Positions 1,889 through 44,203 of a stretch of 46,604 nt of DNA are shown here, piece after piece. Below the pieces are notes generated by a model. The model was not told the DNA's origin and did not search any database. It saw only the letters and a program-made list of their open reading frames with translations. How positions within the stretch are numbered: position 1 is the stretch's first letter; every line of letters begins with the position of its first letter. The DNA lies in sequence record OQ243221; one strand, 5' to 3'. Made by a program: the position numbers and the translations under genes. The stretch comes from Escherichia phage vB_EcoS-UDF157lw.

Positions 1889-2006
1889 CAATCTACGAAC
1901 ACACGTTCAGCAGCAGGGGTATCGATATGCTCTTGCATTACGTAGACGAGAGATACGCCATGTTAATGCAGAAGACGCATGGCGGCACTATAAAGAGGGT
2001 TGAGAT

Positions 2007-2123
2007 ATGTACTACTATATAATTCCTGTTGAAGATTTGATTCGTGATTACAGTCACGGCTACATTGCTGTATGCGACGCTGATACAATGACTGCATATG
2101 TTGACTTTGATTTTGAGGATTGA
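2007..2123 (+). CDS. Small hypothetical protein (38 aa)
   Basis: Hand-translated ORF MYYYIIPVEDLIRDYSHGYIAVCDADTMTAYVDFDFED; RBS agaggg-ttgagat-ATG nearly identical to the RBS context of the next gene. Confidence 0.3.
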   Translation: MYYYIIPVEDLIRDYSHGYIAVCDADTMTAYVDFDFED

Positions 2124-2126
2124 GAT

Positions 2127-2426
2127 ATGAGTAAGTACGAAAAAGAGATTATTGGCCTGGACGGCACCAAGACTACGGTTGATGTATATCGCGTCATCGC
2201 AGCATTTGGCGTAACGGACCCGGCACTACAGCATGCCATCAAAAAGGTACTGTGCAGCGGCATTCGAACACGACATAAGGATTACCCTACCGACATCAAT
2301 GAGGCCATTGTATCGCTTCAGAAGGCCATAGAATTCCATGATCAAAGGGGCGCACATGTCCAGGAACTTATAGACAAGTATCGCAACGGACCTAAACATT
2401 ATCTTGATAGCTGGAGCAACAAATAG
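2127..2426 (+). CDS. Hypothetical protein (99 aa)
   Basis: ORF with RBS gagga 8 nt upstream; the stop codon is the TAG of the downstream TAGCAC motif. Confidence 0.55.
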   Translation: MSKYEKEIIGLDGTKTTVDVYRVIAAFGVTDPALQHAIKKVLCSGIRTRHKDYPTDINEAIVSLQKAIEFHDQRGAHVQELIDKYRNGPKHYLDSWSNK

Positions 2427-2466
2427 CACAAATTGCTAAACATCCATCGCAAGGATGCGTTACCAT
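2424..2466 (+). promoter_or_regulatory. Composite promoter-like element: TAGCACaaaTTGCTAAA, 22 nt, TACCAT (weak -10)
   Basis: Same architecture; spacer holds inverted repeat CATCC...GGATG; leader TATCGAAATGAGACGAGG. Confidence 0.4.
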
Positions 2467-2498
2467 TACTTTATCGAAATGAGACGAGGAAAGATTAA

Positions 2499-2627
2499 AT
2501 GTGTGGATATGATGAGTTGCCAAGTGAATGGTGTAAAAAGATGATGGATGAGGCTAAAGATGGGGATGAAGTAATGGCGTACTTTGAGTTGATGAACATG
2601 TGGCATGAGCGCGAGGAGAAGAAATGA
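2499..2627 (+). CDS. Small hypothetical protein (42 aa)
   Basis: ORF MCGYDELPSEWCKKMMDEAKDGDEVMAYFELMNMWHEREEKK with RBS cgagga; stop overlaps next start (ATGA). Confidence 0.3.
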   Translation: MCGYDELPSEWCKKMMDEAKDGDEVMAYFELMNMWHEREEKK

Positions 2628-2917
2628 AGATTTACGTATTCACTGGCAACTTATTGGCAGCCAACGATTCTGAAGGTGGTGACGGCAAGCGAGCAATTCA
2701 CATGGGGAGTAAGAAACAAACAATGAGGCGCATATCTATTGATGAAGCAATTAAAATTGGTAGCTTCGTTTGCTTGTGGGTATGTGATGGTGAGCTTCAA
2801 GCGGAACAGGTTAGGAATGGTTACGTATATACTGGATATGATGAATATGACGATGAGAGAGAATTGTTTCAGCCTGCATTTTATCTCGACGCTGAATTTT
2901 ACATCGCTGGAGAATAA
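2624..2917 (+). CDS. Hypothetical protein (97 aa)
   Basis: ORF in track; translationally coupled to the upstream small ORF. Confidence 0.5.
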   Translation: MKIYVFTGNLLAANDSEGGDGKRAIHMGSKKQTMRRISIDEAIKIGSFVCLWVCDGELQAEQVRNGYVYTGYDEYDDERELFQPAFYLDAEFYIAGE

Positions 2918-2920
2918 CCC

Positions 2921-3055
2921 ATGATATGGATTCACACGTACTACACTGGCAAGTTCAATAGCGTAATGCACAAACGAATGTATGACAGCTATGAATCAGC
3001 AAAGGCACAGCAGGCAGTCCTAGGTGGCGATATTCAATCTTACAAGAAGGCTTAA
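2921..3055 (+). CDS. Small hypothetical protein (44 aa)
   Basis: Hand-translated ORF MIWIHTYYTGKFNSVMHKRMYDSYESAKAQQAVLGGDIQSYKKA; ends 2 nt before the next ATG. Confidence 0.3.
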   Translation: MIWIHTYYTGKFNSVMHKRMYDSYESAKAQQAVLGGDIQSYKKA

Positions 3056-3057
3056 TC

Positions 3058-3297
3058 ATGTTCGGACTTACTCAACCACAATTTAATGCAGTTCGCGCCC
3101 AAGCTAAGAAACTTAACGAGGCAGTGGATAAGCTGACAAGCAAGCAGAAGCAGGATAATGACATCATGAAGGCGATTATCTGTGAGTTTCATAGCCCAGT
3201 CAGTACAATCATCGAGAAGATGAAGTTTGTTTGGGTTGCAGGCTATCTTGCTGGTCGCGTAGGTAAGCGTGAAGATGGGGAGCAGATTTATGACTAA
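3058..3297 (+). CDS. Hypothetical protein (79 aa)
   Basis: ORF in track; tightly packed with flanking genes. Confidence 0.5.
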   Translation: MFGLTQPQFNAVRAQAKKLNEAVDKLTSKQKQDNDIMKAIICEFHSPVSTIIEKMKFVWVAGYLAGRVGKREDGEQIYD

Positions 3298-38992: not shown

Positions 38993-40126
38993 ATGGCTAT
39001 AGCTAAAATCACCAACGAAGAGTTAAAGCAAGAACTGGCTAACGGTATGACTAACAAGGCAATCGCAGAGAAGTACGGTATGAATATTCGTAACGTAGAG
39101 CTGCGTCGCAGCAAGTTGGCTAAGGCTGGGGATGGTCACGGTCGCGATGTGAGTAACCTAATTCCTCAGGGCTACATGGTTAAAGGTGTATCTAGCCTTG
39201 TTGATAATGATGGCAATGTGAAGTTGCAATGGGTTAAGTCCTCTATTGATGCAGAGAAGCTTGAGGAGATGATGAATCAAGCGCGAGAGGCATTCTCTAG
39301 CGAGCTACCAAAAGAAAAAGCAGTTAAATCTGAAGGTCTGAATTTTGATGAAGATACTTTAGCTATGTATCCAGTATTTGACCTTCACATTGGCGCAATG
39401 GCCCACAAGCATGAGTGCGGAGAAAACTACGACACAGCAACGGCAGAGAAAGTAATGAACGATTATTTTGACTACGCCGTACAGAAATCTCCAAATTCAA
39501 AGAATGCTGTACTAGTGCTAGGAGGTGATCTGCTTCATTATGATTCTTTGGAAGCCAAAACTCCAGCCAGTGGTCACATCCTGGACAGTGACAGTCGCTA
39601 CGCCAAGATTGTTTATGTTTGCATTCGAGCGGTTCGCCGCGCAATTCGAAACATGCTTAGCAAACATGAAAACGTAGAGGTTAAAGTTATATCTGGTAAT
39701 CATGATGAAAGTGGTATGGTTTGGTTGCGGGCTGCGCTTGCTGCATTTTATGAGGAAGAGCCACGCGTTAGTATTGATGTTAGTCCCGCGGCAATGATGG
39801 TAACTAAGTTTGGTTCTACAATGCTTGGTTTCACTCACGGGCATCAAATGCGTAAAGCTGATACTCGCCTTTCGGTTATGGCTACTGACTGGCGACGTGA
39901 CTTTGGTTTAAGTGATTATGTATACACCCACTCAGGCCACTGGCATTCACAGAAGATTACAGAGACAAATCTTGGTATTGATGAGGTTCATGGTCAGCTT
40001 GGTTCACCAGATGCATATAGTGCGAATGGTGGATGGCGCTCACAAAGGCAGGCCGCGGTAATCATCTATCATAAAGAGTTTGGTGAGGTTGGTCGCTTTA
40101 TCTGCCGTCCAGAAATGTTCAAATAA
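38993..40126 (+). CDS. Calcineurin-like metallophosphoesterase with N-terminal HTH-like domain (377 aa)
   Basis: Phosphoesterase motifs D-L-H (FDLHIG), GGDLLH, GNHDE, GH.H (HSGHWH); N-terminal about 110 aa with HTH-like TNKAIAEKYGMNIRNVELRRSKL. Confidence 0.8.
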   Translation: MAIAKITNEELKQELANGMTNKAIAEKYGMNIRNVELRRSKLAKAGDGHGRDVSNLIPQGYMVKGVSSLVDNDGNVKLQWVKSSIDAEKLEEMMNQAREAFSSELPKEKAVKSEGLNFDEDTLAMYPVFDLHIGAMAHKHECGENYDTATAEKVMNDYFDYAVQKSPNSKNAVLVLGGDLLHYDSLEAKTPASGHILDSDSRYAKIVYVCIRAVRRAIRNMLSKHENVEVKVISGNHDESGMVWLRAALAAFYEEEPRVSIDVSPAAMMVTKFGSTMLGFTHGHQMRKADTRLSVMATDWRRDFGLSDYVYTHSGHWHSQKITETNLGIDEVHGQLGSPDAYSANGGWRSQRQAAVIIYHKEFGEVGRFICRPEMFK

Positions 40127-40851: not shown

Positions 40852-41025
40852 ATGACTAAATTATTCTGCGTTAGCAACAAATCAAAATCACTGCCTTTCA
40901 CTGTAAACAACCCTTACAGTGGTGAGTACCAGGGGGATGGTAATTATAAGATTTATGGCGATGACATGACTTGGATCTTCGCTCCCATTGATGGAGAGCT
41001 GGTGGAATTCATTATAGCAGACTAA
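40852..41025 (+). CDS. Hypothetical protein (57 aa)
   Basis: Hand-translated ORF MTKLFCVSNKSKSLPFTVNNPYSGEYQGDGNYKIYGDDMTWIFAPIDGELVEFIIAD; followed by terminator. Confidence 0.4.
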   Translation: MTKLFCVSNKSKSLPFTVNNPYSGEYQGDGNYKIYGDDMTWIFAPIDGELVEFIIAD

Positions 41026-41051: not shown

Positions 41052-41080
41052 AGGCGGCCTTTATGGCTGCCTTTTTTCTT
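41052..41080 (+). terminator. Rho-independent terminator upstream of lysis cassette
   Basis: GGCGGCC-ttta-GGCTGCC hairpin (one G-U) followed by TTTTTTCTTTT. Confidence 0.65.
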
Positions 41081-41139
41081 TTATGTCAAAGTTTAATATC
41101 TGGTATTATTTAATCAAATCAACTTAAAGAGGCCGCAAC

Positions 41140-41355
41140 ATGAAGCATTTCTATGACGCAGCCGCCTTGTCCGGTAGCGGAGTAGCTATGGGTGGCGGTT
41201 TATCTGACAACACAATCATCGGCATTATTGGCTTAGTTATCGCCGTATGCTTTGGTATTTTTGGCGCATGGCTGCGCTGGCGTGACAGTAAGGCGCTCCA
41301 TAAAGCACTTGAAGATGGGGATATTCGAGAGGCAATGAGAATCAGGAGTAAATAA
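41140..41355 (+). CDS. Holin (71 aa; pinholin-like)
   Basis: Small protein with Gly-rich segment and hydrophobic TMD IIGIIGLVIAVCFGIFGAWL, charged C-terminus; directly upstream of a SAR endolysin. Confidence 0.65.
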   Translation: MKHFYDAAALSGSGVAMGGGLSDNTIIGIIGLVIAVCFGIFGAWLRWRDSKALHKALEDGDIREAMRIRSK

Positions 41356-41837
41356 TGAGCATTAAAAATAAGGTAATTGGTTCTGCTGTGGCTGGTGCCA
41401 TGGCTCTGGCGGTTCCGTTCCTTAATGAGCATGAAGGCGTTGAGTACAAGCCTTACAAGGATGTTGCTGGGGTATGGACTATTTGCGCAGGAATCACTGG
41501 TCCTGACGTTATTCTGGGCAAGGTTTACACACAGCGAGAGTGTGATGCACTACTTATGAAGCACTTGTCAATTCATCGTGCCGCTGTTGATAAAGCGTTA
41601 AAGGTTGATGTTCCAGTTAGCACCAGGGCTGCCTTGTATAGTTTCTCATTCAACGTGGGAACTAATGCGATGCGCAAATCAACGGCAATGAGGAAGATTA
41701 ATTCCGGAGATATCTATGGCGGTTGCAATGCCTTAAGGCTATTTAACAAGATTACAATTAATGGTAAAAAGGTTGTATCTAAGGGTTTGGATAATAGACG
41801 TGACGCGGAGGTGAAGATATGCGTTTCGGAGTTGTAG
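41355..41837 (+). CDS. SAR endolysin (lysozyme, P21 R-like, 160 aa)
   Basis: N-terminal Gly/Ala-rich signal-anchor (VIGSAVAGAMALAVPF) followed by EGVEYKPYKDVAGVWTICAGITG...YSFSFNVG lysozyme core closely resembling phage P21 R. Confidence 0.9.
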   Translation: MSIKNKVIGSAVAGAMALAVPFLNEHEGVEYKPYKDVAGVWTICAGITGPDVILGKVYTQRECDALLMKHLSIHRAAVDKALKVDVPVSTRAALYSFSFNVGTNAMRKSTAMRKINSGDIYGGCNALRLFNKITINGKKVVSKGLDNRRDAEVKICVSEL

Positions 41838-42223
41838 TTCTGGCAATTATCTTGCTGACAGGGTGCTCTGCTATGTCAGCCATTTCTGATTTCTTACCAG
41901 TAAAGGATGGCGTAGAGGCAACCGCGCAGGTTGGTGAGTCCAACCAGAAAACAGGAGTTGGATTGTCAAATCAAACAGACAAATCTAGCTCAACAGAAAG
42001 CGACATGCGCAACTCAACTAACAGAGACGTAGATTCATCAAGCCAGAAAAAGACAGCCGCTACAGGACTATCAGCCAACACAATAACAGCTGAAAAGATT
42101 GAAATTCATAGCACTGAAAATTCTGGCTTTGACTCTTTAGTCTGGGGTATTCTGGCTGGATTAGTTTCAGGTTTGCTAACTTACTTCGCTTTAAGATTCG
42201 CAGGAAACAAAAAAGGAGCCTAA
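41819..42223 (+). CDS. Unimolecular spanin (u-spanin, T1 gp11-like, 134 aa)
   Basis: N-terminal lipoprotein signal with lipobox LTGC and C-terminal TMD LVWGILAGLVSGLLTYFAL, the defining u-spanin topology. Confidence 0.75.
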   Translation: MRFGVVVLAIILLTGCSAMSAISDFLPVKDGVEATAQVGESNQKTGVGLSNQTDKSSSTESDMRNSTNRDVDSSSQKKTAATGLSANTITAEKIEIHSTENSGFDSLVWGILAGLVSGLLTYFALRFAGNKKGA

Positions 42224-42238
42224 TGGCTCCTTTATTTT
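42208..42238. terminator. Bidirectional terminator between convergent rightward and leftward operons
   Basis: GGAGCC-taat-GGCTCC flanked by AAAAAA upstream and TTTATTTT downstream. Confidence 0.65.
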
Positions 42239-42572
42239 ACGCGAACAGTTGGTCGTCTGTCATTTCTTTTATGGTCATCATCTCATTGGTGTACTTATCA
42301 CTCTCACCTCCGAGGCACCTAAAGCTAAAACCGAATGGTCGCTTCGTGCTTCCTTTGCTCCAGTAACTGCCATTAACTCCATCGATGTAACCTTCAGTCA
42401 TGCATCTTGCCAGAAACTCCTTTGACGCAGATGATGCAAAGTAACGCGCATTAACTCCAGCTGCCTTAGCCATTCTTTCACATTCTTTGTGGCGGTAAAT
42501 GAATACCGCCAGGTGCTGCCTGTTAAACTTTTCGTAGCTCTCGCAGAACTTGAACACATCAAGGATGAACAT
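42237..42572 (-). CDS. Hypothetical protein (111 aa)
   Basis: ORF in track, last gene of the leftward operon. Confidence 0.5.
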   Translation of the reverse strand: MFILDVFKFCESYEKFNRQHLAVFIYRHKECERMAKAAGVNARYFASSASKEFLARCMTEGYIDGVNGSYWSKGSTKRPFGFSFRCLGGESDKYTNEMMTIKEMTDDQLFA

Positions 42573-42576
42573 TTAA

Positions 42577-44160
42577 TTACCCCAGCAGCCGTGGATTGAT
42601 ATATACCTTGTCACCAATCAGGCAGGTATAGTTTTTATCATCAAGCATCGGGAGTAAGTGGTCTTTAATTTTAGCCATAACACCAGCCTGTGACTCGAAA
42701 GGTCGAACCTTACGCGCAGCTTCATAAAGTGAACGCAAACCCACAACTCCTTTACTGTTCTTGCCTTGCTTGATAAGGATATCAATTAACTTGTTCATCT
42801 CAGCGTTATCGCCAGCATGACCAGCTGCGTTAGCAGAAGATAAGTAAGTCTTGCTAAGTTCTTCAAACATCAATAAAGCCTCCTGCATCGTTTCCAGTCC
42901 AATCTCCCTGGACTTCTGCGGACTACCGCCATTTGGATTAAACCAGTTACGTATGGTGTGAAGAACGGCAGCAAGGCGAATAACCTGTTTATCCATTTTA
43001 CCTAGTGCGCCACGGAGCATTGTGTGTGAATACTTGCCGCCATCCGCAAGGTGTGGCTCCATTTCCTGTCGAGCACGGTTAAGGTGCTTCATTGCTGAGT
43101 TACTAATAGTCAACTTCACATCTTGCTCACTCATAATTTCATGAACAAGACGGAAGTAATCAGCCTTCAACGCTCCGTCAATCGGCTCATATGTTGACTC
43201 GCCATTATCATCGACGAAAACACGCTCACCAAGGAATGACTTTTCACGCACAAGCAAGAAACGTTCGGATACACCAATACCGCGAGCACCAGCATTCATG
43301 ATTGCGACTATTGTTTCATCCTGCGCAATTACAGAAATACACCCCATAGCAATAAAGCTCATGTTGTTCTCTGCGTTCGCACGCGCGATAGATACGTTAC
43401 CAGCATCCCAGGCCTTAAGTACCAGTTCGCTGTTTGTTTTCTTTGTTCCATCACCATAGGTCATGCCCAGCAGTGAGTTGACGCTCGTCGCCTCATCCGA
43501 GATGACAGCGAAGCTACCCTGACGATGGTTAATGCGTGCCAGACCTTCAGGAGTAGTATCAGATACAGGGAATACGATGTCGCAAAGTTTCTCGAGCTTA
43601 TCTTCCAGCTCCTCCTTCTCCTCAAACAAACCAGCCATCTCAGAAGGCGACTTCTCCTGCTTCATTTCTTTAGCCAGAGCCGACAGCTTGGCCATAATCT
43701 TTTTACGGTCACGCTTACGCAGATCGTTTAGTCGCTCAGTCTCTGCAATCATTGGAGCAAGAGACAGCGAGTTAATGGCAGATTTACCAGTTGATGGAGG
43801 CTGGCTGGTCACTACATACAGTGATGTTGGTTGTTGAGTTCCGTGATACTCAACCGTAAAGCGACCTAACATAGCTGCCGAGATGCAACCAAGGAAGTGC
43901 ATATAAGCAGATGATTCAGGAAACTGAACAGAACGAGCAATGTTGCTTGATAGTTTGCCAACTACATCATAGTCGTTACCAAGCGAGATAACAGGATACT
44001 TGTCGCCAGTAGAATCAATCTCAACCGGAGCTTTCCAGAATGATGCGCTCTGGCGATAACCGTTCGCATTAATAGCAACACGTAAAGGAGGTAATCCATC
44101 CTGAGCGGCAACAGCCATTACTTGTTCAACAGTCAATTTGTCATCATTAAAATCAAACAT
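42577..44160 (-). CDS. Putative replication-associated P-loop NTPase (helicase/primase-associated, 527 aa)
   Basis: Deviant Walker A PPSTGKS and Walker B-like FAVISDEATS; RBS GAGAGAG before ATG 44160; N- and C-termini are paralogous to the 1036-1596 protein. Confidence 0.6.
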   Translation of the reverse strand: MFDFNDDKLTVEQVMAVAAQDGLPPLRVAINANGYRQSASFWKAPVEIDSTGDKYPVISLGNDYDVVGKLSSNIARSVQFPESSAYMHFLGCISAAMLGRFTVEYHGTQQPTSLYVVTSQPPSTGKSAINSLSLAPMIAETERLNDLRKRDRKKIMAKLSALAKEMKQEKSPSEMAGLFEEKEELEDKLEKLCDIVFPVSDTTPEGLARINHRQGSFAVISDEATSVNSLLGMTYGDGTKKTNSELVLKAWDAGNVSIARANAENNMSFIAMGCISVIAQDETIVAIMNAGARGIGVSERFLLVREKSFLGERVFVDDNGESTYEPIDGALKADYFRLVHEIMSEQDVKLTISNSAMKHLNRARQEMEPHLADGGKYSHTMLRGALGKMDKQVIRLAAVLHTIRNWFNPNGGSPQKSREIGLETMQEALLMFEELSKTYLSSANAAGHAGDNAEMNKLIDILIKQGKNSKGVVGLRSLYEAARKVRPFESQAGVMAKIKDHLLPMLDDKNYTCLIGDKVYINPRLLG

Positions 44161-44203
44161 TATTATCATCTCTCTCTAAATGCCCCCGAAGGGGCTTGAC
44201 TAT

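What the first reader, a model, noticed from the sequence alone, without database searches (positions are those of the whole stretch)
41140..42223. Lysis cassette of pinholin-type holin, SAR endolysin and unimolecular spanin
The endolysin has an N-terminal signal-anchor-release segment and a P21-R-like lysozyme core. It is preceded by a 71-aa holin and followed by a single protein combining a lipoprotein signal and a C-terminal transmembrane domain, the u-spanin layout described for phage T1 gp11. This combination supports the T1-like assignment.
Basis: established knowledge. Interest (0 to 1): 0.35.

Follow-up and report, generated by a model that had tools for sequence, protein, structure and literature searches.

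The report
Known T1-type phage lysis cassette

Summary
Three tightly packed + strand genes lie at 41140-42223: a 71-aa holin, a 160-aa GH24 lysozyme and a 134-aa lipoprotein with a C-terminal transmembrane domain (TMD). The DNA is 99.7% identical to phage vB_EcoS_Rogue1 (Drexlerviridae, Rogunavirus).

- **Endolysin:** about 50% identical to the crystallised SAR endolysin R21 (E 5e-37), and the alignment includes the N-terminal segment. It keeps the E27/D36/T42 triad and an 18-residue uncharged Gly/Ala-rich N-terminal anchor.
- **Spanin:** 36% identical to T1 gp11 (E 2e-16). It has lipobox LTGC, Ser at +2, no periplasmic Cys and a C-terminal TMD. No second lipoprotein ORF is present. Kongari et al. 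2018 list Rogue1 by name in the T1gp11 u-spanin family and say that family sits in pinholin/SAR-endolysin cassettes.
- **Holin:** "Pinholin" is the weakest label. The holin is homologous to T1 gp13 (37%) and copies the S21 layout, but it is not an S21 homologue (hhalign probability 0.2%). No experiment on it was found.

Verdict: interpretation supported, already known, low interest.

The parts
41140..41355 (+). Holin, 71 aa (T1 gp13 family, PHROG 2877). It has a charged N-terminus (MKHFYD), a weak Gly/Ala/Ser-rich segment at 7-22, a strong TMD at 25-45, and a conserved basic C-terminal helix (RWRDSKALHKALEDGDIREAMRIRSK, net +3).
   Evidence: 2.7e-36; 37% identity to T1 gp13, 2e-16. No Pfam hit in the local library. 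Its own cluster carries PF27028.
41355..41837 (+). SAR-type endolysin, 160 aa, a GH24 muramidase of the R21 type. The N-terminal anchor spans residues 7-24 after K4 and K6. The catalytic triad is E27-D36-T42. There is no Cys in the anchor, and four body Cys residues sit at the same positions as in R21.
   Evidence: PF00959, 5.6e-35; 4ZPU 1.2e-37, 3HDE 5.1e-37, 3HDF 4.8e-36, P1 Lyz only 4.6e-5; 51% identity to T1 gp12; E27, D36, T42 invariant.
41819..42223 (+). Unimolecular spanin, 134 aa, T1gp11 family. The signal peptide carries lipobox LTGC (Cys16) with Ser17 at +2. The periplasmic domain is 89 residues, Ser/Thr-rich and Cys-free. The C-terminal TMD is at 106-125, with a basic tail.
   Evidence: PHROG 1804, 3.4e-46; 977 phage records; 36% identity to T1 gp11, 2e-16; L13, G15, C16, S17, the TAQVG..N.K motif and the AE motif are invariant; Rogue1 listed in the T1 family.
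41052..41082 (+). Rho-independent terminator-like hairpin plus T-run, immediately upstream of the cassette. Its position is conserved in T1 and two other Drexlerviridae lineages.
   Evidence: (-15.5 kcal/mol, z -3.7).
42212..42240 (.). Bidirectional terminator hairpin overlapping the spanin stop codon. It ends both the lysis cassette and the convergent minus-strand operon.
   Evidence: annotated in Rogue1; -15.4 and -14.3 kcal/mol on the two strands.
40852..41025 (+). Neighbouring 57-aa DUF7244 (SH3-clan) gene, the homologue of T1 gp14. It has been proposed in the literature as an accessory lysis-module gene. Its membership of the cassette is not shown.
   Evidence: PF23896, 3.5e-29, full length; T1 ST14 8.8e-29. 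(PMC13164509).

Best explanation
This is the late lysis cassette of a Rogunavirus (a T1-like siphovirus), and it most likely works by the pinholin / SAR-endolysin / u-spanin route.

(1) The endolysin is exported by the host Sec system. It stays tethered to the periplasmic face of the inner membrane by its weakly hydrophobic N-terminal anchor. The catalytic Glu27 lies only 2-3 residues from the membrane, so the enzyme is inactive there.

(2) The 71-aa holin accumulates in the inner membrane with its basic C-tail in the cytoplasm. At a programmed time it forms small lesions that collapse the proton-motive force.

(3) Depolarisation releases the anchor from the bilayer. The enzyme refolds, as shown for R21, and degrades the peptidoglycan.

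(4) The spanin is lipid-anchored in the outer membrane through Cys16 (Ser at +2 avoids inner-membrane retention) and anchored in the inner membrane through its C-terminal TMD. It is held extended by the murein mesh. Once the mesh is gone it collapses and fuses or disrupts the two membranes.

Shown here: the genes, their homologies and all the sequence-level topology features. Inferred from homologues: export without cleavage, PMF-dependent release, hole size and membrane fusion.
For: - DNA is 99.7% identical to Rogue1 gp62-64, annotated holin / endolysin / Rz-like spanin.
- The endolysin is about 50% identical to R21 over 145 aligned residues, starting inside the SAR region.
- E27/D36/T42 are invariant in relatives and in R21.
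- The N-terminal segment features match R21's: 2 N-terminal basic residues, 15-24 uncharged residues, 44-62% Gly/Ala/Ser/Thr, no Cys.
- The spanin is homologous to T1 gp11, with a conserved lipobox, +2 Ser and C-terminal TMD. There is no periplasmic Cys and no other lipobox ORF on either strand of 41300-42600.
- T1 gene 11 complements lambda RzRz1 defects, and Rogue1 is listed in the T1gp11 family, whose cassettes are described as pinholin plus SAR endolysin (PMC6139136).
- The holin is homologous to T1 gp13. Its layout parallels S21 quantitatively: N-segment KD 1.15 vs 0.63, GAST 0.73 vs 0.60, one strong TMD, tail +3 in both.
- The window's holin gives weak hits, in the same profile register as S21, to the two PHROGs that S21 also hits: phrog_20 at 2.5e-4 and phrog_1350 at 5e-3.
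Against: - No experiment on this holin family was found. T1/TLS holins are only 'proposed' to be class II pinholins (PMC11447400), and T1's own record says 'single transmembrane domain'.
- The holin's N-terminal segment is only about 16 residues at KD about 1.0, joined to the TMD by a 2-4 residue turn. It may never insert into the membrane.
- There is no homology to S21: no BLASTP alignment, hhalign probability 0.2%, no PF04971 hit. T1 gp13 does not hit phrog_20.
- The endolysin anchor contains AxA-type motifs (AMA, ALA|VP), so signal-peptidase cleavage cannot be excluded from sequence alone.
- No sigma-70-like promoter was found between the upstream terminator and the holin, so how the cassette is transcribed is unknown.
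Confidence: 0.75

Rival explanations
1. The holin is not a pinholin. It would be a single-TMD (N-out, C-in) holin that forms large, non-specific holes. The endolysin would still be SAR-type, and the holin would act simply as a depolarising timer.
For: There is only one segment of clear TMD strength, residues 25-45 at KD 2.6. T1 gp13 is annotated 'contains single transmembrane domain'. There is no homology to S21. One family member (P0005) lacks the Gly/Ala-rich N-segment altogether, though it looks like a frameshift.
Against: The Gly/Ala/Ser/Thr-rich uncharged N-segment is conserved in composition in 9 of the 10 aligned family members, despite low sequence identity. That argues it is functional, as TMD1 of S21 is. 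The family is consistently paired with SAR endolysins. The literature proposes pinholin.
Confidence: 0.2
2. The endolysin N-terminus is a cleavable Sec signal peptide, giving a secreted soluble endolysin like Lys44 of Oenococcus phage fOg44. It would not be a signal-anchor-release domain.
For: The sequence has an n-region with K4/K6, a short hydrophobic core and small-x-small motifs (AGA, AMA, ALA followed by VP), with Gly at -6.
Against: The AxA-type motifs are not conserved at a fixed position. T1 gp12 and the Veterinaerplatzvirus enzyme have no such site near the C-terminal end of the segment, where Pro follows (LTLTP, IAAP), and keep only early ones (GAA|L, TAA|A, AAA|I). R21, which by established knowledge (Xu et al. 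2004; Sun et al. 2009) is not cleaved, has AIA|I and AIA|S in the aligned columns. In R21 the released SAR segment is part of the active fold, and 3HDF without it is the inactive form (plus established knowledge). The catalytic Glu lies only 2-3 residues after the segment.
Confidence: 0.07
3. The 134-aa protein is half of a two-component spanin (an Rz1-like o-spanin, as GenBank records call it), with an unrecognised i-spanin partner.
For: GenBank annotations of Rogue1, AHS24 and others read 'putative Rz1 protein'.
Against: The protein carries its own C-terminal TMD and basic tail. No further lipobox ORF or candidate N-terminal-TMD i-spanin lies in or around it. It is homologous to T1 gp11, which alone complements RzRz1. 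SpaninDB classes it as a u-spanin.
Confidence: 0.02

Closest known systems
Phage vB_EcoS_Rogue1 gp62-gp64 (also BECP10, AHS24, JK06; Rogunavirus, Drexlerviridae)
   Same: The DNA across the cassette is 99.7% identical to Rogue1 and BECP10, 98.2% to AHS24 and 92.5% to JK06. Gene order, overlaps and terminators are the same.
   Different: Essentially nothing in the cassette differs. The spanin protein is 99.3% identical to Rogue1's. Elsewhere the window is a mosaic, closest to BECP10 (97.4% over 92% of the first 25 kb).
Coliphage T1 gp13 / gp12 / gp11 (holin, SAR endolysin, prototype u-spanin)
   Same: The gene order and flanking synteny match, and the protein sizes are nearly identical (71/71, 160/162, 134/133 aa). 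All three proteins are homologous, at 37%, 51% and 36% identity. The upstream DUF7244 gene and the terminator are also shared.
   Different: The sequences are divergent (a different subfamily). The window's spanin TMD is Gly-rich and less hydrophobic (KD 1.96 vs 2.97). The window's holin has an Asp between the two hydrophobic segments, whereas T1 has an uninterrupted 42-residue uncharged stretch.
Phage 21 R (R21) SAR endolysin, PDB 3HDE/3HDF; E. coli DLP12 RrrD, PDB 4ZPU
   Same: About 50% identity, E 1e-37. Both have the E-x8-D-x5-T catalytic triad, four Cys at the same body positions and a Cys-free Gly/Ala-rich N-terminal anchor.
   Different: The window's anchor is shorter (18 vs 24 uncharged residues). 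R21 has about 6 extra residues (TGPSGN) at the C-terminal end of its anchor, ahead of the catalytic Glu. The window's protein is not the disulfide-caged P1 Lyz type: P1 Lyz matches only at 4.6e-5, and position 36 is Asp, not Cys.
Phage 21 pinholin S21 68/71 (Pfam PF04971)
   Same: Same size (71 aa) and same layout: a weak Gly/Ala/Ser/Thr-rich N-segment, one strong TMD and a +3 basic tail. Both lie directly upstream of an R21-type SAR endolysin.
   Different: No detectable homology. The inter-segment loop is 2-4 residues against about 11. There is no MKxM dual-start motif. The C-terminal helix (DSKAL..AL...IR) is highly conserved and specific to the T1 family. Hole size has not been tested.

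Membership tests
T1gp11 u-spanin family (Kongari et al. 2018) | N-terminal lipoprotein signal with a lipobox and a lipidated Cys; +2 residue is not Asp (outer-membrane sorting) | tested here: met
   MRFGVVVLAIILLTGC with lipobox LTGC, Cys16 and Ser17. L13, G15, C16 and S17 are invariant in 5 diverse members.
T1gp11 u-spanin family (Kongari et al. 2018) | C-terminal transmembrane domain in the same polypeptide, with a cytoplasmic basic tail | tested here: met
   Residues 106-125 (KD 1.96 over 19 residues), followed by RFAGNKKGA.
T1gp11 u-spanin family (Kongari et al. 2018) | Sequence homology to T1 gp11 (the family was grouped at 40% identity over 40% of length, by linkage) | tested here: met
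   36% identity over 121 aa directly to T1 gp11, E 2e-16, and 40% to a Veterinaerplatzvirus member. PHROG 1804 at 3.4e-46. The 99.3%-identical Rogue1 protein is listed in the T1 family, Table 5.
T1gp11 u-spanin family (Kongari et al. 2018) | No periplasmic Cys; last gene of the lysis cassette; no separate o-spanin or i-spanin | tested here: met
   0 Cys in the 89-residue periplasmic domain, and it is the only lipobox ORF in 41300-42600 on either strand. Its position after the endolysin is shown.
T1gp11 u-spanin family (Kongari et al. 2018) | Functional complementation of lambda Rz/Rz1 (outer-membrane disruption) | not testable with these tools
   Shown for T1 gene 11 only (PMC6139136).
SAR endolysin, R21 type (GH24) | GH24 lysozyme fold with an E-x8-D-x5-T catalytic triad | tested here: met
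   PF00959 at 5.6e-35. E27/D36/T42 are invariant in the alignment with R21. 3HDE matches at 5.1e-37.
SAR endolysin, R21 type (GH24) | N-terminal weakly hydrophobic TMD, rich in Gly/Ala/Ser/Thr and preceded by basic residues | tested here: met
   K4 and K6, then an 18-residue uncharged segment with 44% GAST and KD 1.76. R21 has 24 residues, 62% GAST and KD 1.39. Four relatives behave likewise. The HMMER alignment to R21 starts at residue 9, inside the segment.
SAR endolysin, R21 type (GH24) | Anchor not cleaved by signal peptidase; PMF-dependent release from the membrane activates the enzyme | not testable with these tools
   Only indirect evidence. The AxA motifs are not positionally conserved, and they are also present in the uncleaved R21.
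SAR endolysin, P1 Lyz / disulfide-caged type | Catalytic Cys in the triad and a Cys in the SAR domain, allowing disulfide isomerisation | tested here: not met
   Position 36 is Asp and there is no Cys in residues 7-24. P1 Lyz (1XJT) matches only weakly, at 4.6e-5.
Pinholin (S21 paradigm) | Sequence membership of the S21 family (Pfam PF04971) | tested here: not met
   No Pfam hit at E<=1, no BLASTP alignment and hhalign probability 0.2%. The only link is weak hits to phrog_20 (2.5e-4) and phrog_1350 (5e-3), two PHROGs that S21 also hits.
Pinholin (S21 paradigm) | Small class II layout: a SAR-like weak TMD1, a strong TMD2 and a basic cytoplasmic C-tail | tested here: inconclusive
   The layout is present and conserved in 9 of 10 family members. 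However, the N-segment is only about 16 residues at KD about 1.0, with a 2-4 residue turn, so its membrane insertion is uncertain.
Pinholin (S21 paradigm) | Genetic pairing with a SAR endolysin | tested here: met
   The holin lies immediately upstream of, and overlaps (TAATG), the R21-type endolysin. The same pairing occurs in T1, Veterinaerplatzvirus and Webervirus-like phages.
Pinholin (S21 paradigm) | Forms about 2-nm heptameric pinholes that depolarise the membrane but do not pass endolysin | not testable with these tools
   No experimental paper on T1-family holins was found.
Drexlerviridae (T1-like) phage | Genome-wide nucleotide similarity and synteny with classified members | tested here: met
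   The first 25 kb matches BECP10, JK06 and Rogue1 at 94-97%. Rogue1's taxonomy line reads Drexlerviridae; Rogunavirinae. The exonuclease / DUF7244 / lysis / helicase synteny with T1 is shown.

The most novel reading that the evidence does not exclude
The T1-family 'pinholin' may be an independent invention rather than an S21 relative, and its mode of action has never been tested. It has a very short or non-inserting N-segment and a strongly conserved amphipathic C-terminal helix. It could work differently from S21, for example as a single-TMD depolariser regulated through its C-terminal helix. In addition, the cytoplasmic DUF7244/SH3-like protein just upstream could be a fourth, regulatory lysis component. 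That is despite the conserved terminator separating it from the holin, and despite its lack of any export signal.
Probability: 0.12. Interest if true: 0.4.

Novelty: already known. Interest (0 to 1): 0.08.

Why it matters
It matters little beyond correct annotation. The cassette is a textbook-type lysis module of T1-like phages, and near-identical copies are already deposited, annotated and catalogued in SpaninDB. It is useful as confirmation that the window is a Rogunavirus. It also corrects the 'Rz1' label used in several GenBank records. Two open scientific questions remain: whether T1-family holins really are pinholins, and what the neighbouring SH3-like gene does. Both belong to the whole family, not to this window.

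Tried and rejected
- **Structure prediction.** A single-sequence AlphaFold2 model of the endolysin gave mean pLDDT 36 and was unusable. I did not repeat it, because 50% identity to the solved R21 structures makes it unnecessary.
- **Word-index homology search.** For the holin it returned only its own cluster. The exhaustive HMMER search gave 9 representatives. One of them (P0003, 1518 aa) is a repetitive low-complexity artefact, and one (P0005) looks like a frameshifted N-terminus.
- **Homology of the holin to S21.** Rejected.
- **NCBIfam.** It gave no specific family for the holin, the spanin or DUF7244. The only hits were sub-threshold ones for the endolysin (BgtA, SpmX) and noise for the spanin (TraV, OmpA).
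- **Pfam hit of the spanin to Dsc3_C.** E 0.015, below the curated cutoff; dismissed.
- **Promoter search.** I looked for a conserved promoter between the upstream terminator and the holin and found none.
- **Internal start at Met17 of the holin.** There is a GGAG 5 nt upstream, which might suggest a dual-start or antiholin device. Met17 is not conserved in the family, so I rejected it.
- **Literature access.** The experimental paper on T1 gp11 localisation (PMC6206483) is not held in the library.
- **47-aa ORF at 42223-42366.** It lies antisense to an annotated minus-strand gene and beyond the terminator. I did not treat it as a gene.
Full report
**Observation.**
- 41140-41355, 71 aa
- 41355-41837, 160 aa
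- 41819-42223, 134 aa

They are packed as a translationally coupled unit. The holin stop and endolysin start share a base (TAATG), and the endolysin and spanin overlap by 19 nt. Each start is preceded by a Shine-Dalgarno-like motif. They are not chance ORFs: PHROG 2877 'holin' 2.7e-36, Pfam PF00959 Phage_lysozyme 5.6e-35 / PHROG 7 'endolysin' 1.1e-54, and PHROG 1804 'Rz-like spanin' 3.4e-46.

**Identity of the region.** The 1.4-kb stretch is 99.7% identical to Enterobacteria phage vB_EcoS_Rogue1 and to vB_EcoS-BECP10. It is 98.2% identical to AHP24/AHS24 and 92.5% to JK06. In the RefSeq record of Rogue1 (Drexlerviridae; Rogunavirinae; Rogunavirus) the three genes are gp62 holin, gp63 endolysin and gp64 Rz-like spanin. 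Two terminators are annotated at the 3' end. The first 25 kb of the window matches BECP10 (97.4% identity, 92% coverage), JK06 and Rogue1. The window is therefore a mosaic Rogunavirus genome.

**Comparison with T1.** In T1 (NC_005833) the gene order is:
1. ST16, exonuclease
2. ST15, HNH
3. ST14
4. ST13, holin
5. ST12, endolysin
6. ST11, spanin
7. terminator
8. convergent ST10 and ST9 (helicase)

The window has the same order without the HNH insert. Pairwise BLASTP against T1 gives 37% identity for the holin (E 2e-16), 51% for the endolysin (E 2e-56) and 36% for the spanin (E 2e-16).

**Endolysin.**
- The best solved relatives are E. coli RrrD (4ZPU, 1.2e-37) and phage 21 R in its active (3HDE, 5.1e-37) and inactive (3HDF, 4.8e-36) forms. 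P1 Lyz is distant (4.6e-5).
- Identity to R21 is 50% over 145 aligned positions, and the alignment begins at residue 9, inside the N-terminal hydrophobic segment.
- In an alignment with T1 gp12, three other phage enzymes and R21, the residues E27, D36, T42, C44 and C63 are invariant.
- The N-terminus reads MSIKNK-VIGSAVAGAMALAVPFLN-EHEG. That is two basic residues, then 18 uncharged residues (44% Gly/Ala/Ser/Thr, KD 1.76, no Cys), then the catalytic Glu 2-3 residues later.
- The relatives and R21 show the same pattern: 15-24 uncharged residues, 44-62% GAST and no Cys.
- It is therefore an R21-type SAR endolysin and not the disulfide-caged P1 Lyz type.
- The rival, a cleavable signal peptide, cannot be excluded from sequence alone, because AMA and ALA|VP motifs are present. 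However, these motifs are not positionally conserved: T1 and the Veterinaerplatzvirus enzyme keep only early sites and have Pro at the corresponding late position. R21, which by established knowledge is not processed, carries AIA|I and AIA|S in the aligned columns.

**Spanin.**
- The protein begins MRFGVVVLAIILLTGC-SA, with lipobox LTGC and Cys16. Ser at +2 implies Lol sorting to the outer membrane by the +2 rule (established knowledge).
- The 89-residue periplasmic domain is rich in Ser and Thr and has no Cys.
- Residues 106-125 form a TMD, followed by RFAGNKKGA.
- A permissive scan of every frame on both strands of 41300-42600 found no other lipoprotein-type start. There is therefore no embedded, overlapped or separate o-spanin.
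- tblastn finds the family in 977 phage records. Most are Klebsiella and Escherichia Drexlerviridae, and many are annotated u-spanin.
- In five diverse members the lipobox, Ser17, a TAQVG..N.K..G motif, several Asp/Ser/Lys positions and the Ala-Glu of an ITAEKIEI-like motif are invariant.
- Kongari et al. 2018 (PMC6139136) define u-spanins by these features and report that T1 gene 11 complements lambda RzRz1. Table 5 lists vB_EcoS_Rogue1, AHS24, AHP42, AKS96, JK06, e4-1c, phiJLA23 and phiKP26 in the 28-member T1 family (supplements).
- The same paper states that all T1gp11-family members except two lie in cassettes encoding a pinholin and a SAR endolysin.
- The 'putative Rz1 protein' label in several GenBank records is a misnomer.

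**Holin.** This is the only part of the interpretation that rests on inference.
- Hydropathy shows one strong TMD (residues 25-45, KD 2.6). It also shows an N-terminal 16-residue stretch that is 75% Gly/Ala/Ser with KD about 1.0. Asp23 lies between the two, and the C-tail has net charge +3.
- T1's record says 'single transmembrane domain'. The TLS paper says two putative TMDs, 'therefore proposed to be class II pinholins' (PMC11447400). The KanT1 paper simply calls it a pinholin (PMC13164509). I found no experimental study.
- An exhaustive HMMER search of 1.84 billion representatives found only 9 clusters. In the alignment, 9 of 10 members conserve the composition, though not the sequence, of the weak N-segment. 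All conserve the C-terminal helix: D49, S50, A52, A56 and A65 are invariant.
- I supplied the S21 sequence from memory and validated it by a full-length PF04971 match at 8.6e-36. Against it the layouts are quantitatively parallel.
- There is no homology to S21: no BLASTP alignment, hhalign probability 0.2% and no PF04971 hit.
- The only link is a pair of weak hits by the window's holin to phrog_20 (2.5e-4) and phrog_1350 (5e-3), two PHROGs that S21 also hits. T1 gp13 does not share these hits.
- The holin therefore works-like, and is paired-like, a pinholin, but it is not a member of the S21 family. Its hole size is untested.

**Surroundings.**
- Eremina et al. 2026 propose this protein as an accessory lysis-module component.
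- It has no signal sequence or TMD.
- It is separated from the holin by a strong terminator-like hairpin with a T-run, at 41052-41082 (-15.5 kcal/mol, z -3.7).
- A hairpin and T-run are found at the same position in T1 and in two other lineages, with different stem sequences.
- The three lysis genes are thus bracketed by terminators. The 3' one (42212-42240) is bidirectional and overlaps the spanin stop.
- No sigma-70-like promoter, and no conserved element, was found in the 60-70 nt spacer. How the cassette is transcribed remains open.
- The same spanin family also occurs in Klebsiella podoviruses, in the order spanin-holin-endolysin. The spanin alone is therefore not diagnostic of T1-like phages. 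The synteny and genome-wide identity are.

**Mechanism.**
1. *Inferred from R21.* The endolysin undergoes Sec-dependent export and is tethered in an inactive state.
2. *Inferred.* The holin accumulates and triggers, depolarising the inner membrane. Small holes are likely but unproven.
3. *Inferred from R21.* The anchor is released and the enzyme refolds into an active muramidase.
4. *Inferred from T1 gp11.* Once the murein is removed, the u-spanin, which bridges both membranes, is freed to collapse and disrupt or fuse the outer membrane.

Shown here are the genes, their homologies and all the sequence-level topological determinants.

**Verdict.** The cassette is already known: near-identical sequences are deposited, annotated and listed by name in the spanin catalogue. 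Interest is low.

Noticed in passing
window 40852-41025 (+): A 57-aa ORF is a full-length DUF7244 / SH3-clan protein (PF23896, 3.5e-29), homologous to T1 gp14. A 2026 paper proposes it as an accessory component of the Drexlerviridae lysis module. It has no signal peptide or TMD, so it is hard to see how it would reach the murein before lysis if the holin is a pinholin.
   Followed up: partly
window 41052-41082 (+); T1 locus L003 6782-6818: A strong terminator-like hairpin with a T-run sits between the DUF7244 gene and the holin. The same is seen in T1, a Veterinaerplatzvirus and a Webervirus-like phage, with different stem sequences. The lysis cassette is therefore bracketed by terminators, and no sigma-70-like promoter or conserved element lies in the spacer. 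Expression may depend on read-through.
   Followed up: partly
L006 (Klebsiella podovirus vB_KpP_AttikonH5) 1980-3214: The T1gp11-family u-spanin also occurs in Klebsiella podoviruses, where the order is spanin-holin-endolysin and the endolysin is a longer 200-aa protein. The spanin gene evidently moves between unrelated phage groups independently of its cassette partners.
   Followed up: no
window 38993-40126 (+): The 377-aa 'DNA repair exonuclease' (homologue of T1 gp16) begins with a helix-turn-helix-looking segment. Its homologue in Stenotrophomonas phage BUCT705 is annotated 'sigma-70 region 4 domain-containing protein'. It is possibly a DNA-binding or regulatory fusion.
   Followed up: no
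window 41819-42223; GenBank records JQ182736, KF771236, MW286156 and others: Several deposited relatives annotate the u-spanin as 'putative Rz1 protein', and others as 'hypothetical protein'. This is an annotation error, because the protein has its own inner-membrane TMD.
   Followed up: yes
window 41188 (Met17 codon of the holin): A GGAG lies 5 nt upstream of an internal in-frame ATG. Starting there would give a 55-aa holin lacking the weak N-segment. Met17 is not conserved in the family, so a dual-start device seems unlikely.
   Followed up: partly
window 42237-42572 (-) and 42577-44169 (-): These are convergent minus-strand genes: a 111-aa protein with no Pfam hit ('YdbL' in JK06) and a 530-aa helicase-like protein (DUF3987 in a relative). 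They end at the same bidirectional terminator as the lysis cassette.
   Followed up: no
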